DNA of 9,417 nucleotides from IMG/VR virus record IMGVR_UViG_2700989509_000013; one strand, 5' to 3'. Within the stretch, counting starts at the first letter, position 1. Each line of letters begins with the position of its first letter. A model generated the notes under the pieces. The model saw only the letters and a program-made list of their open reading frames with translations. It ran no database searches and was not told where the DNA came from. The DNA is from a virus (taxonomy: Duplodnaviria; Heunggongvirae; Uroviricota; Caudoviricetes). A program made the position numbers and the translations under genes. Shown here piece by piece: positions 256 to 9,060 of the stretch.

Positions 256-456
256 GAAAATAAAGGGATAACGATGATAGTTTGAGAAAAACAGAAATAA
301 CACTTTTGTGGCAAAGCATGGTGCCGGGTGCCTCCCGGTGAATTCAGTATCAGCACCTGAATCCGCGATTACCCCATATTCCTTCTTGCTGATTGCCCCA
401 CCGCACAGGGGGATTCACCATGCAGAAGTGTTTTTAATAAACAGCAAACAAAAAAA

Positions 457-1209: not shown

Positions 1210-1225
1210 GGGAAAATAAGTGTAG

Positions 1226-1299
1226 CGCGTTGTACTGGAGTCGAACCAGTGACCGATTGCTTAGAAGGCAATTGCTCTGTCCTGCTGAGCTAACAACGC
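1226..1299 (-). tRNA. tRNA-Arg (anticodon UCU)
   Basis: Clean cloverleaf on the minus strand: acceptor GCGTTGT/ACAACGC, D-arm GCTC/GAGC, anticodon stem ATTGC/GCAAT with loop CTTCTAA, T-arm ACTGG-TTCGACT-CCAGT. CCA not encoded. Confidence 0.9.
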
Positions 1300-1312
1300 A
1301 GAATACCGATAA

Positions 1313-1388
1313 TGGACCACCACCGGGGACTCGAACCTCGCACACTCAACTTAAAGGGTTGACGCTCTTTCCTGATGGCTAGTGGCGG
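1313..1388 (-). tRNA. tRNA-like gene, structurally degenerate (possible pseudo-tRNA; anticodon loop CCUUUAA would read UUU)
   Basis: Acceptor CCGCCAC/GTGGTGG pairs (one G-U) and CCA is encoded; anticodon stem TCAAC/GTTGA is perfect. D-stem has only 2 pairs (GCCA vs GAGC), T-stem has an A-C mismatch, position 33 is C not U, discriminator is U. Confidence 0.45.
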
Positions 1389-1389
1389 T

Positions 1390-1465
1390 TGGTGGCCCTT
1401 GCTGGATTTGAACCAGCGACCTGGCGATTATGAGTCGCTCGCTCTCACCACTGAGCTAAAGGGCC
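1390..1465 (-). tRNA. tRNA with anticodon CAU (Ile2/Met type, ileX/ileZ-like), CCA encoded
   Basis: GGCCCTTTAGCTCAGTGGTGAGAGCGAGCGACTCATAATCGCCAGGTCGCTGGTTCAAATCCAGCAAGGGCCACCA: 7-bp acceptor, GCTC/GAGC D-stem, loop CTCATAA, T-arm GCTGG-TTCAAAT-CCAGC. Closely resembles remembered E. coli ileX. Confidence 0.9.
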
Positions 1466-4316: not shown

Positions 4317-4400
4317 TCCATCCCTCTTCTCCCTGCGCGCTACTTAAGTATTTTTGATTCTATTCCGGCACCTTCAAAAAGCTCAAACGTCTTGAAAATA

Positions 4401-4428
4401 AACAACAAAAAACCCGCCGAAGCGGGTT
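4401..4428 (-). terminator. Rho-independent terminator at the 3' end of the hok transcript
   Basis: Minus-strand hairpin AACCCGC-TTCG-GCGGGTT (4411-4428) followed by UUUUGUUGUU; about 70 nt past the hok stop. Confidence 0.5.
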
Positions 4429-4496
4429 AAGTGCGGGTGCGTTGAGGATGCCTGACACATCAGAGGTGGCGAGGGATTTCTCCCCCGCCGGGTCTC

Positions 4497-4652
4497 TTAC
4501 TCCTCAGGTTCGTAAACTGTGAAGACAGCGACCTCCGTCTGGCCGGTTCGGATTCGTACCTCGCAGAGGTCTTTCCTCGTTACCAGTGCCGTCACTATGA
4601 CGGTTAAACAGATGACGATCAGGGCGATTAACATCGCCTTTTGCTGCTTCAT
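4497..4652 (-). CDS. hok: Hok-family type I toxin (HokD/RelF-like), 51 aa
   Basis: MKQQKAMLIALIVICLTVIVTALVTRKDLCEVRIRTGQTEVAVFTVYEPEE is a near-exact match to remembered HokD. ATG at 4650-4652 with AAGGAG 9 nt upstream; an in-frame upstream ATG at 4709 gives the 70-aa track ORF. Confidence 0.9.
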   Translation of the reverse strand: MKQQKAMLIALIVICLTVIVTALVTRKDLCEVRIRTGQTEVAVFTVYEPEE

Positions 4653-4830
4653 AGCCTGCTTCTCCTTGCCTTTCGGCACGTAAGAGGCTAACCTACATTT
4701 GTGAGACATAGATTGGGCCTCAGATTAATGTTAAGCGTCTTGCAGGACGCCGAATGTTAACTGGGGCTTTTCTCTATCTGCCTTTGGTGTTCATGCCTGA
4801 GACAGATAGCCTCAAGCACCCGCAGCCATT
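4653..4830 (-). promoter_or_regulatory. hok mRNA leader region (expected site of mok-like overlap, fold-back elements and antisense Sok-like RNA; not resolved)
   Basis: Position relative to hok plus inverted repeat CTATCTG/CAGATAG at about 4769-4808. Sok promoter could not be pinned down by eye. Confidence 0.3.
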
Positions 4831-5114
4831 CTACTTAACTCCCGTTACCTCGCCAATATGAAATCAATCAGAAAGGTGCTCCATAAGAACAATAACAAGA
4901 CAATAAATTGCCATTACAGCCGCAATAGCCAGCGCACATTTCAGAACCAGCACGATGACCTCCCATATTTGACGTACACGCGCATGATTCAATATGTAGC
5001 AACCTATTTCTTGCTTCAATATAAAATCAGGTATTGTTGCATAACTATTTAACTGACTCCCTATCCCCACATCTCAGGCGCTCAACTTCTGTGTGCGGGG
5101 CGTTTTTTAATACC

Positions 5115-7882: not shown

Positions 7883-8308
7883 TCAATGCACAGCCACAAT
7901 ATTTCCTGCAGGGCCACCTCGATTTATCTGGTTGAAACCAGCGATCGCCACTGCGACAAAATCATCAGCGTCTCTCACCAGTCGCTCCCGCGTCTCCACC
8001 AGCTCCCGAAAATAAGCTGAACTGTGGCTGCGCATTCTGGCCACCAGCAAAGGTGGCATTGCCTTTTCGATCGCTGGTAACAGCGCCTGAATTTTTTTAA
8101 CCGCATCAGGAGTATCTTTCTCCACCCAGCGGAAAATTTTCTGAGTATTGCGAGCCAGGGCTTCCGGATGGCTGTCGTCATACAGTTCAGGAAACGTCAT
8201 ACCCAACTCAAAATAAGCCTGGGTTATTCCAGCTGCTGGAACTTTTTCGCCATCAGGACGCGCCCAGGCATTCATCGCCATGCGGATGTGTTCATGCTTG
8301 ATTTTCAT
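7883..8308 (-). CDS. YdaT-like prophage regulatory protein
   Basis: 141-aa product begins MKIKHEHI…, matching the remembered N-terminus of Rac prophage YdaT. ATG at 8306-8308, GGAG 8 nt upstream; overlaps the cro-like gene end by 17 nt. Confidence 0.7.
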   Translation of the reverse strand: MKIKHEHIRMAMNAWARPDGEKVPAAGITQAYFELGMTFPELYDDSHPEALARNTQKIFRWVEKDTPDAVKKIQALLPAIEKAMPPLLVARMRSHSSAYFRELVETRERLVRDADDFVAVAIAGFNQINRGGPAGNIVAVH

Positions 8309-8567
8309 GAATCAACTCCGGTGTATTTGGTGTGTTAGCCTTATCTCCAGCAGGCAACCCGTCAGTTGGATTCGGGTATAAATCTGGTCGCAATTCATGA
8401 GGAGTAACCCCAGTTGCAATATAAATTTGACGAACCCGTTCTCCCGTCGGCACTCGACCATTGTATTCATTTGCCCATTTGTGTATTTGAGATGGCCAAG
8501 CCCCTATTGCACGCCCTAGCGGACGAATACCACCAGCAATCTTTATTGCTTTGTCCAATGCTGTCAT
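8292..8567 (-). CDS. Cro-like HTH regulator of the YdaS/DicC family
   Basis: 91-aa product with …LGRAIGAWPSQIHKWANEYNGRVPTGERVRQIYIATGVTPHELRPDLY…, the YdaS/DicC-type pattern (…HELRPD). ATG 8565-8567 with GGAGG 4-5 nt upstream; divergent from the repressor gene. Confidence 0.75.
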   Translation of the reverse strand: MTALDKAIKIAGGIRPLGRAIGAWPSQIHKWANEYNGRVPTGERVRQIYIATGVTPHELRPDLYPNPTDGLPAGDKANTPNTPELIHENQA

Positions 8568-8670: not shown

Positions 8671-9060
8671 ATGGACATGAGAAAAAAGCAATACGACACC
8701 CCGCTAGCAGAAAGGTTAGATACGATCTCTCAACAGCATCATTTAAGTGGTTCAGATTTAGCGCGTATCGCTGGTGTAGGTCGTTCATCAGTCAACGCAT
8801 GGAAAAAAAGAGGAACAATCAGTAAAGATTCCGCAGCCAAAATTGCAGAAGCCACAAACGTTTCCCTTTCTTGGCTACTGACAGGGAAAGAAGAGACAAA
8901 TAGAGAGGCGCTTGATGATGACGAGAAGGCCCTGCTTGATGTTTACAGAAACCTGCCACCTGTAGAACGTAGAAATATGCTGGCAGCTTTTCAAATGCGA
9001 CTCCAAAAACTGACCGAATTTTACTCAGAATACGTCGACCCAATAACACGACAAAAATAA
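8671..9060 (+). CDS. DicA/CI-like phage repressor (XRE-family HTH, no peptidase domain)
   Basis: 129-aa product with N-terminal HTH (…LSGSDLARIAGVGRSSVNAWKKRGTIS…) and C-terminal helical region …LLDVYRNLPPVERRNMLAAFQMRL… resembling remembered DicA. Divergent from the cro-like gene. Confidence 0.8.
   Translation: MDMRKKQYDTPLAERLDTISQQHHLSGSDLARIAGVGRSSVNAWKKRGTISKDSAAKIAEATNVSLSWLLTGKEETNREALDDDEKALLDVYRNLPPVERRNMLAAFQMRLQKLTEFYSEYVDPITRQK

What the first reader, a model, noticed from the sequence alone, without database searches (positions are those of the whole stretch)
4401..4830. hok-family type I toxin locus inside the prophage
The toxin ORF is nearly identical to remembered HokD and has its own strong Shine-Dalgarno, an in-frame 19-codon upstream extension, a 3' terminator, and fold-back repeats in the leader. 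Unlike Qin, no relBE genes follow it, so the neighbourhood differs from K-12. Whether an antisense Sok-like RNA and its promoter are intact could not be decided by eye, and that determines whether the locus is live.
Basis: partly seen in the sequence, partly recalled or inferred. Interest (0 to 1): 0.4.

Follow-up and report, generated by a model that had tools for sequence, protein, structure and literature searches.

The report
Complete hok/mok/sok toxin-antitoxin cassette
This is an ordinary, structurally complete copy of the well-known hok/sok RNA-controlled toxin cassette carried by a lambda-like prophage; it is the untruncated form of E. coli K-12's hokD and a close relative of the experimentally proven hokW-sokW.

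Summary
On the minus strand, 4856-4403 holds a whole hok/mok/sok cassette. It has a weak promoter, an mRNA of about 419 nt (4821-4403), the tac, ucb and fbi folding elements, a 70-codon mok in frame with a 51-codon hok, and a terminator.

The open question, whether Sok is intact, is answered yes at sequence level. A convergent plus-strand gene has -35 TTGCCT, a 17-nt spacer and -10 TAACCT (4666-4694). The RNA is about 77 nt (4701-4777): a 5' tail, a long hairpin and a U-tail. The promoter 30-mer is identical to that of sokW of Sakai prophage 5, whose activity was shown by mutagenesis.

K-12 hokD shares only the part downstream of 4666; relBE replaces its regulatory half. Hok is 50/51 identical to K-12 HokD (A46V).

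Full-length loci of this type occur in about 58% of complete E. coli genomes, and this Sok-target allele in 706 of them. Nothing is new in kind.

One side observation: the Sok tail and its target loop are the single hypervariable spot of an otherwise conserved module (12 alleles in 103 phage copies). Expression and toxicity are inferred, not shown.

The parts
4828..4856 (-). hok promoter: -35 TTGGCG (4856-4851), 17-nt spacer, -10 TAGAAT (4833-4828)
   Evidence: The consensus scan gives 9/12 matches. The -10 is conserved in 95/103 phage copies. The -35 lies in the mosaic flank and varies.
4403..4821 (-). full-length hok mRNA (about 419 nt)
   Evidence: The 5' end is taken from position 1 of the Rfam RF01794 model and lies 7 nt after the -10. 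The 3' end is taken from the terminator. The fold has z = -7.6.
4810..4821 (-). tac element (GGGUGCUUGAGG), the extreme 5' end of the mRNA
   Evidence: It pairs with fbi in the full-length fold and with ucb in the 3'-shortened fold.
4763..4769 (-). ucb element (AAGCCCC), the alternative partner of tac
   Evidence: The fold of 4821-4450 pairs mRNA nt 1-8 with nt 53-59. The Rfam consensus has the same helix.
4685..4721 (-). Sok-target hairpin over the mok translation start. The mok SD GAGG (4721-4718) pairs with CCUC, the mok AUG lies in the inner stem, and the 7-nt loop is CUCACAA (4705-4699)
   Evidence: The hairpin appears in the full-length fold. It is retained in all 19 sequence variants seen among 103 loci, at -10 to -14 kcal/mol in those carrying 99 of the 103 loci. 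The loop and the SD-AUG spacer are the hypervariable spot.
4497..4709 (-). mok reading frame (70 codons), in frame with hok
   Evidence: ORF list. K-12 mokC has the same in-frame arrangement. mok is in frame and 70 aa long in 82/103 phage copies.
4662..4667 (-). hok Shine-Dalgarno AAGGAG, which overlaps the Sok -35 on the other strand
   Evidence: Read from the sequence. The aligned hexamer 4668-4663 (CAAGGA), which overlaps the SD by 5 nt, is unchanged in 98/103 copies. It is partly paired with upstream CUCUU in the fold.
4497..4652 (-). hok toxin ORF (51 codons plus stop), HokD with A46V
   Evidence: Pfam PF01848 at E 6.4e-22. It is 50/51 identical to K-12 HokD. PGAP names the identical gene hokD.
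4511..4514 (-). UACG at Tyr47, the TadA A-to-I editing motif (Tyr to Cys) reported for hokD
   Evidence: Read from the sequence. Motif and hokD editing are from PMC12214031. Tyr at this position is kept in every full-length Hok variant of the sample.
4435..4447 (-). fbi element (CCUCAACGCACCC), which pairs with tac to close the mRNA
   Evidence: The MFE fold pairs mRNA nt 1-12 with it. It is identical in 83/103 copies, and the commonest variant changes only one base, which I read as the bulged one.
4403..4428 (-). intrinsic terminator of hok mRNA (AACCCGCUUCGGCGGGUU plus U-run)
   Evidence: Terminator scan. K-12 hokD shares it.
4666..4694 (+). Sok promoter: -35 TTGCCT (4666-4671), 17-nt spacer, -10 TAACCT (4689-4694)
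   Evidence: The 30-mer 4664-4693 is identical to the published hokW-locus probe YO-597. The published 'promoter-less' primer changes exactly T4689, A4691, T4694 and A4695 (PMC8621323). The generic consensus scan does not find this promoter.
4701..4777 (+). Sok antisense RNA (about 77 nt): 5' tail 4701-4714, hairpin 4715-4767, U-rich tail 4768-4777
   Evidence: The ends are mapped from the annotated K-12 sokC. The fold gives -31.4 kcal/mol, z = -4.9. The published sokW probe begins at the equivalent of 4701.

Best explanation
The window carries a complete hok/mok/sok type I toxin-antitoxin cassette of the hokD/hokW lineage, in the early-right operon of a Rac/Qin-like lambdoid prophage.

Shown by sequence and folding:
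- A weak promoter makes an mRNA of about 419 nt. Its 5' end (tac) pairs with its 3' end (fbi), giving a closed form.
- Without the last ~45 nt, tac pairs with ucb instead.
- A hairpin holds the mok SD and AUG and displays a 7-nt loop.
- A convergent promoter identical to that of sokW would make a ~77-nt Sok RNA. Its 5' tail is complementary to that loop and to the mok start.

Inferred from the R1 and Sp5 systems:
- Full-length mRNA is inert. Slow 3' trimming activates it.
- Sok binds the loop and blocks mok translation, and with it the coupled hok translation. The duplex is then cleaved by RNase III.
- When Sok falls, through prophage loss, transcription shut-off or prophage induction, Hok is made. 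Hok inserts into the inner membrane and collapses it.
- In a prophage the likeliest pay-off is the one shown for hokW-sokW: earlier lysis and more phage release on induction. Addiction to the prophage is the second possibility.
For: Identity of the parts:
- Rfam hok-leader model at 116.9 bits.
- Pfam HOK_GEF at E 6.4e-22.
- Hok 50/51 identical to HokD.

Architecture:
- The locus aligns end to end with the hokW-sokW locus, 361/387 nt identical from tac to fbi. Stx2 phage I stands in for Sp5 and matches all six Sp5 primers and probes compared exactly.

Folding:
- tac-fbi pairing in the MFE of the full-length RNA, z = -7.6.
- tac-ucb pairing in the shortened RNA.
- Sok folds as tail, hairpin and U-tail, z = -4.9.

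Sok promoter:
- It is identical to the sokW promoter, whose -10 mutation abolished antitoxin activity (PMC8621323 section 2.1).

Constraint across 103 phage-borne copies:
- mok ATG 103/103, mok SD 102/103, the hok SD region hexamer 98/103.
- The hok ORF is full length (51 aa) in 98/103.

The module boundaries are sharp, at about 4835 and about 4403. The cassette is co-oriented with the cro-like, replication and Q genes. This fits the RecA-dependent HokW production reported on induction.
Against: - No expression, processing or toxicity data exist for this sequence. All function is inferred by homology.
- The Sok -10 matches the consensus at only 3 of 6 positions, and the generic promoter scan did not call it.
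- Intact chromosomal hokA, hokB and hokC loci were reported not to mediate post-segregational killing and not to respond to rifampicin (cited in 10.1101/2025.08.07.668861).
- The A46V change next to the edited Tyr47 codon is untested.
- The -35 of the hok promoter lies in a variable flank. Transcription of hok may therefore depend partly on read-through.
Confidence: 0.85

Rival explanations
1. The cassette is structurally intact but functionally silent: a passenger that no longer kills or stabilises anything. This was proposed for chromosomal hok loci.
For: [quoted passage not shown] K-12 chromosomal hok loci other than hokB are regarded as inactivated (PMC12214031). The Sok and hok promoters match the consensus only modestly.
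Against: There is no IS element, deletion or frameshift here. Every regulatory element is conserved across 103 phage-borne copies while the flanks are mosaic, which argues for selection on the module. The 93%-identical hokW-sokW is a working toxin-antitoxin pair in its native prophage (PMC8621323).
Confidence: 0.12
2. The cassette works mainly as an abortive-infection defence of the lysogen. Host transcription shut-off by an infecting lytic phage depletes Sok, and Hok kills the cell before phage release.
For: R1 hok/sok on a high-copy plasmid reduced T4 plating (cited in PMC8621323, and in 10.1101/2025.08.07.668861). Prophages often carry defence genes.
Against: hok genes are not enriched near defence systems (10.1101/2025.08.07.668861, section list and discussion). 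The only test of a prophage-borne copy showed help for the phage's own release. Nothing in the window bears on defence.
Confidence: 0.1
3. The upstream 19 codons are only a chance in-frame extension and hok is translated directly from its own strong SD, so Sok would not control it through mok.
For: hok has a good AAGGAG at a 9-nt spacing. Residues 2-5 of the extension are hypervariable, so its peptide sequence is not conserved.
Against: The mok ATG is invariant in 103/103 copies and its SD in 102/103. The frame is open for 70 codons in 82/103. The hok SD is partly sequestered in the fold. K-12 annotates the same in-frame mokC. Sok overlaps the mok start, not the hok start.
Confidence: 0.05

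Closest known systems
hokW-sokW of Sakai prophage 5 / Stx2 phages (PMC8621323)
   Same: The architecture is the same from the -10 of the hok promoter to fbi, with 361/387 nt identical. The Sok -35, spacer and -10 are identical. Both share the 18-nt extension at the tip of the Sok hairpin, an in-frame 70-codon mok, and a position in a lambdoid prophage.
   Different: The Hok C-terminus differs (FTVYEPEE here, FVDYESEK in HokW; 47/51 identical by my count). The Sok 5' tail and target loop are a different allele, with 6 mismatches in the 30-nt sokW probe region. This locus has a clear intrinsic terminator after fbi that the Stx2 phage copy lacks.
hokD (relF) of the K-12 Qin prophage
   Same: The toxin is 50/51 identical. 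The DNA is 95.9% identical from the hok SD to beyond the terminator, including fbi. The prophage neighbourhood is the same on the downstream side (DUF968, then Q).
   Different: K-12 homology stops at window 4666. There relE-relB replace the hok promoter, tac, ucb, the mok start and the Sok gene. K-12 hokD is therefore a truncated relic and this is the complete form. Downstream, a 55-aa ORF replaces rem.
hokC/mokC/sokC (gef) of E. coli K-12
   Same: mok is in frame with hok. Sok starts 8 nt inside mok. The ends of sokC map onto 4701 and 4777. The tac, ucb and target-hairpin layout is the same.
   Different: sokC is 59 nt because it lacks the 18-nt hairpin-tip extension. The 3' region, including fbi, has diverged. 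The K-12 copy lies next to IS186.
hok/sok (parB) of plasmid R1, the paradigm
   Same: The leader fits the Rfam model of the hok-family leader. The logic is the same: tac-fbi closure, 3' trimming, refolding, and a Sok 5' tail that recognises a loop (PMC1635323).
   Different: Toxin identity is low: HokW, a near relative of this toxin, is 44% identical to R1 Hok (PMC8621323). Sok is about 77 nt here against 64 nt in R1. The carrier is a prophage, not a plasmid. R1 itself was not aligned directly here.

Membership tests
[quoted passage not shown] | Small Hok/Gef membrane toxin ORF | tested here: met
   Pfam PF01848 at E 6.4e-22, 77.3 bits against a cut-off of 22. The ORF is an intact 51 codons.
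[quoted passage not shown] | Conserved hok mRNA leader structure | tested here: met
   Rfam RF01794 at 116.9 bits against a gathering score of 59, covering the full model 1-157.
[quoted passage not shown] | Overlapping mok reading frame with its own SD, upstream of hok | tested here: met
   GAGG, 8 nt, then ATG at 4709, opening a 70-codon frame. The ATG is kept in 103/103 relatives and the SD in 102/103.
[quoted passage not shown] | Convergent cis-antisense Sok gene (promoter, 5' tail, stem-loop, U-tail) overlapping the mok start | tested here: met
   The promoter is identical to that of validated sokW. The fold is, and the ends were mapped from sokC. This is sequence-level evidence only.
[quoted passage not shown] | Long-range 5'-3' pairing (tac-fbi) in the full-length mRNA | tested here: met
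   The MFE structure pairs nt 1-12 with 4447-4435.
[quoted passage not shown] | Alternative tac-ucb pairing once the 3' end is removed | tested here: met
   The MFE of 4821-4450 pairs nt 1-8 with nt 53-59. This matches the Rfam consensus helix.
[quoted passage not shown] | Toxicity of Hok and neutralisation by Sok RNA | not testable with these tools
   This needs cloning and growth assays. It has been shown only for the relative hokW-sokW (PMC8621323).
HokD/RelF as defined in E. coli K-12 (third gene of relBEF, no mok/sok) | HokD protein sequence | tested here: met
   50/51 identical. PGAP names the identical gene hokD.
HokD/RelF as defined in E. coli K-12 (third gene of relBEF, no mok/sok) | Location directly downstream of relB-relE, with loss of the hok regulatory leader | tested here: not met
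   The window has no RelB or RelE. The leader, mok and sok are present, and K-12 homology ends at 4666.
hokW-sokW subtype (prophage-borne) | End-to-end collinearity with the Sp5 locus, including the extended Sok hairpin | tested here: met
   361/387 nt identical.
hokW-sokW subtype (prophage-borne) | Same Sok recognition tail (expected cross-repression with sokW) | tested here: not met
   There are 6 mismatches in the 30 nt that start at the Sok 5' end, 4 of them within Sok nt 3-6. The allele is different, and cross-reactivity is untested.

The most novel reading that the evidence does not exclude
The Sok 5' tail and its target are the only hypervariable spot of an otherwise conserved, horizontally shuffled module. 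The target comprises the loop of the mok-start hairpin, the SD-AUG spacer and mok codons 2-4 (window 4695-4714). At least 12 block alleles occur among 103 phage copies, while the hairpin and its stability are kept. The most novel reading not excluded is that these alleles are specificity ('immunity') groups under diversifying selection. Each prophage's Sok would then silence only its own hok, and co-resident prophages could not protect a cell from one another's toxin. This would parallel incompatibility determinants of plasmid antisense RNAs. I found no paper that states this for hok/sok, but my literature search was shallow.
Probability: 0.3. Interest if true: 0.4.

Novelty: already known. 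Interest (0 to 1): 0.13.

Why it matters
It matters little for discovery. The cassette belongs to a textbook family, and an identical copy sits in a RefSeq genome annotated hokD.

Two practical points follow.

1. Genome annotation names only the toxin, as 'HokD'. It marks neither mok nor Sok, and nothing is annotated under the Sok-target region in the listed genomes that carry this allele (706 in all). Complete and truncated loci therefore look alike in databases. About 58% of complete E. coli genomes carry a full-length locus of this type, unlike K-12.
2. The allelic Sok tail is a cheap, testable lead on how many near-identical hok/sok copies coexist in one genome.

Tried and rejected
1. Strand of the Rfam 'sok' hit. 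I first took it as the strand of Sok and rejected that. The aligned sequence contains the mok and hok SDs and ends at the hok AUG, so the model describes the hok-sense leader. Sok is on the opposite (+) strand.

2. Generic promoter scan for Sok. It found only the hok promoter and a site downstream of the terminator. The Sok promoter is too far from consensus, so I relied on identity to the mutagenised sokW promoter instead.

3. Search for relBE or any type II partner. None was found among 18 ORFs.

4. Whether co-resident copies avoid sharing a Sok-tail allele. Only 5 usable same-genome pairs were in my IMG/VR samples. Four pairs differ and one is identical. With about 12 alleles this is what chance gives, so the test is uninformative.

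5. Literature search for Sok cross-talk or specificity between hok homologues. I found no direct statement. Absence in this library is weak evidence.

6. The first phage sample was biased towards the window's own Mok N-terminus. I repeated the sampling with a tac-anchored DNA pattern before drawing conclusions on variability.

7. R1 parB was not fetched for a direct alignment. The comparison with R1 rests on the Rfam model and on papers.

Full report
**What is there.** The region reads as a hok-family locus on the minus strand.
- The ORF list gives a 70-codon frame, 4709-4497. Its last 51 codons start at the ATG at 4652.
- That 51-aa product matches Pfam HOK_GEF at E 6.4e-22.
- It is 50/51 identical to K-12 HokD; the only change is A46V.
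- Rfam's RF01794 matches 4821-4647 on the minus strand at 116.9 bits, against a gathering score of 59. The aligned RNA contains the mok and hok ribosome-binding sites. The model, despite its name 'sok', therefore describes the hok-sense leader.
- The consensus scan finds a promoter (TTGGCG, 17 nt, TAGAAT; 4856-4828) ending 7 nt before model position 1. It also finds an intrinsic terminator (4428-4411 plus a T-run).
- The transcription unit is thus about 4821 to 4403.

**Folding elements.**
- The 419-nt RNA folds with z = -7.6. In the minimum-energy structure its first 12 nt (tac, GGGUGCUUGAGG) pair with CCUCAACGCACCC at 4447-4435 (fbi), one base being bulged.
- When the 3' end including fbi is left out, the same 5' nucleotides pair with AAGCCCC at 4769-4763 (ucb). 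This is the first helix of the Rfam consensus.
- A hairpin at 4721-4685 pairs the mok SD (GAGG) with a downstream CCUC, puts the mok AUG in its inner stem, and shows a 7-nt loop, CUCACAA.
- These are the elements of the R1 model. In that model, end-pairing keeps the full-length mRNA inert, and 3' exonucleases slowly remove about 39 nt. The RNA then refolds and exposes a loop that the single-stranded 5' tail of Sok recognises (PMC1635323).

**The open question: is Sok there?**
- On the plus strand, TTGCCT (4666-4671), 17 nt and TAACCT (4689-4694) precede G4701.
- Aligning the annotated K-12 sokC places its 5' end on 4701 and its 3' end on 4777.
- That 77-nt RNA folds at -31.4 kcal/mol (z = -4.9). 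It has a free 5' tail, a long hairpin (4715-4767) and a U-rich tail.
- It is 18 nt longer than sokC because of an extension at the hairpin tip. The hokW-type loci share this extension.

The strongest evidence comes from hokW-sokW of Sakai prophage 5, which was shown experimentally to be a type I toxin-antitoxin pair. HokW is toxic. The locus is harmless unless the sokW -10 is mutated, and sokW in trans partly restores growth (PMC8621323).
- The Stx2 phage I copy matches all six primers and probes from that paper that I compared exactly, so it stands in for Sp5.
- The window is 361/387 nt identical to it from tac to fbi.
- The published 30-mer covering the Sok -35 to -10 is identical in the window.
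- The 'promoter-less' mutagenic primer differs from both wild-type sequences at exactly T4689, A4691, T4694 and A4695, that is, in the TAACCT box.
- The published sokW probe begins at the equivalent of 4701.

The caveat is that the promoter is far from consensus. The generic scan misses it, and no expression data exist for this sequence.

**Relation to K-12.**
- K-12 hokD aligns with the window only from the hok SD onward, window 4666 to 4304, at 95.9% identity.
- Upstream, K-12 has relE and relB where the window has the mok start, Sok, ucb, tac and the promoter.
- The window contains no RelB or RelE.
- The window therefore holds the complete form, and K-12 hokD is the truncated derivative. 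E. coli B has the complete form too.

**Surroundings.** All on the minus strand, in this order:
- a YdaS-family (cro-position) gene, YdaT, a replisome organizer and DUF977;
- two genes of unknown function;
- the hok cassette and a 55-aa ORF;
- DUF968, RusA and antiterminator Q, followed by three tRNAs.

A CI-type repressor is divergent at 8671-9060. The cassette is thus co-oriented with the early-right operon of a Rac/Qin-like lambdoid prophage. This fits the report that HokW appears, and sokW disappears, on RecA-dependent induction, and that deleting the locus halves phage release (PMC8621323).

**How common it is.**
- Some part of 4350-4900 matches in 4943 of 5426 complete E. coli genomes.
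- 3151 genomes have a place covering at least 80% of it. That coverage requires the leader, because a K-12-type truncated copy covers only about 57%.
- One RefSeq chromosome (strain EC12) is 100% identical over the 551 nt and annotates only 'hokD' there.
- The 45-mer around the Sok target (4684-4728) is identical in 698 records from 706 genomes; the eight listed rows show no annotated feature under it.
- A recent survey already reports that hok is enriched in prophages (10.1101/2025.08.07.668861).

This is a known kind of element, and a known sequence.

**A side observation.** I sampled phage-borne copies twice: by protein (biased to the window's Mok N-terminus) and by an exact tac 19-mer (unbiased at the mok start; 103 loci, 91 unique).
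- Column entropy shows a sharply bounded module from about 4835 to about 4403, with mosaic flanks.
- Inside the module there is one hot-spot, 4695-4714, at 0.62-0.94 bits. Elsewhere in the module the 5-nt bins mostly lie between 0 and 0.3 bits, rising to about 0.6 in the 3' untranslated region and higher at the terminator.
- The 8-nt block 4706-4699 has 12 alleles. The window's allele occurs in 11/103 copies.
- By contrast, the mok ATG is kept in 103/103, the mok SD in 102/103, the Sok -10 in 81/103 (the rest read TAATCT on the Sok strand, one base missing in 8 of the 22) and the hok SD region hexamer in 98/103.
- The target hairpin is retained in every allele. Its energy is -10 to -14 kcal/mol in the variants carrying 99 of the 103 loci, and weaker (-5.4 to -8.4) in three single-locus variants.
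- The variable block is the loop and adjoining stem that pair with Sok nt 1 to about 17. In R1 this part of Sok makes the first contact.

This pattern would be expected if the alleles are specificity groups. It could also reflect relaxed constraint on a spot where only structure matters. A check on same-genome pairs was too small to tell (4 of 5 differ).

**Verdict.** The locus is structurally complete and probably live, by homology to a validated relative. It is already known in kind and in sequence.

Noticed in passing
window 4695-4714 (- strand: mok SD-AUG spacer and mok codons 2-4; + strand: Sok nt 1 to ~14): This is the only hypervariable spot inside the conserved hok module. There are 12 block alleles among 103 phage copies, and the hairpin is kept in all of them. 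The alleles may be Sok specificity groups.
   Followed up: partly
window 4515-4517 (Val46 codon GUU), next to 4512-4514 (Tyr47 UAC): The single difference from K-12 HokD (A46V, GCU to GUU) lies directly 5' of the UACG motif at which TadA is reported to edit hokD Tyr to Cys. The variant occurs in 7/103 sampled phage copies. Its effect on editing is unknown.
   Followed up: partly
window 4664-4830 and the equivalent region in RefSeq genomes: The RefSeq records inspected (strains EC12 and BLR(DE3)) annotate only the 51-codon 'hokD' at loci of this type, with no mok CDS and no Sok ncRNA. The 45-mer search listed no feature under the Sok target. Complete and truncated hokD loci therefore cannot be told apart from the annotation.
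   Followed up: yes
window 4864-5070 (- strand): An unannotated 68-codon ORF (GTG start) lies just upstream of the hok promoter on the same strand. Its C-terminal half is strongly hydrophobic (VIVLVLKCALAIAAVMAIYCLVIVLM). It has no Pfam match, and a terminator-like hairpin (4929-4910) lies inside it. It could be a small membrane protein or a chance ORF.
   Followed up: no
window 4357-4386 (- strand): A promoter-like site (TTGAGC, 18 nt, TAGAAT) lies immediately after the hok terminator. It is conserved in K-12 and E. coli B upstream of rem. Here it precedes a different 55-aa ORF (4276-4109) that replaces rem.
   Followed up: no
window 280-452 (- strand): There is an Rfam STnc100 sRNA match at 100.8 bits (gathering score 47). 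The 3' terminal hairpin of the model is largely missing from the match. It lies downstream of the Q gene and the tRNAs.
   Followed up: no
window 1225-1465 (- strand): Three tRNA genes lie downstream of antiterminator Q: Met-cat (PGAP calls a CAT-type tRNA in the related prophage tRNA-Ile), Lys-ttt and Arg-tct. Rfam at its gathering score listed only two of them. The closest genome (EC12) has a different four-tRNA set here, so the window is mosaic with respect to EC12 below about 2378.
   Followed up: partly
window 7883-8567 (- strand): The genes in the cro/cII positions match the Pfam families named 'YdaS toxin' and 'YdaT toxin', as in the Rac prophage. These are probably immunity-region regulators rather than a toxin pair.
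   Followed up: no
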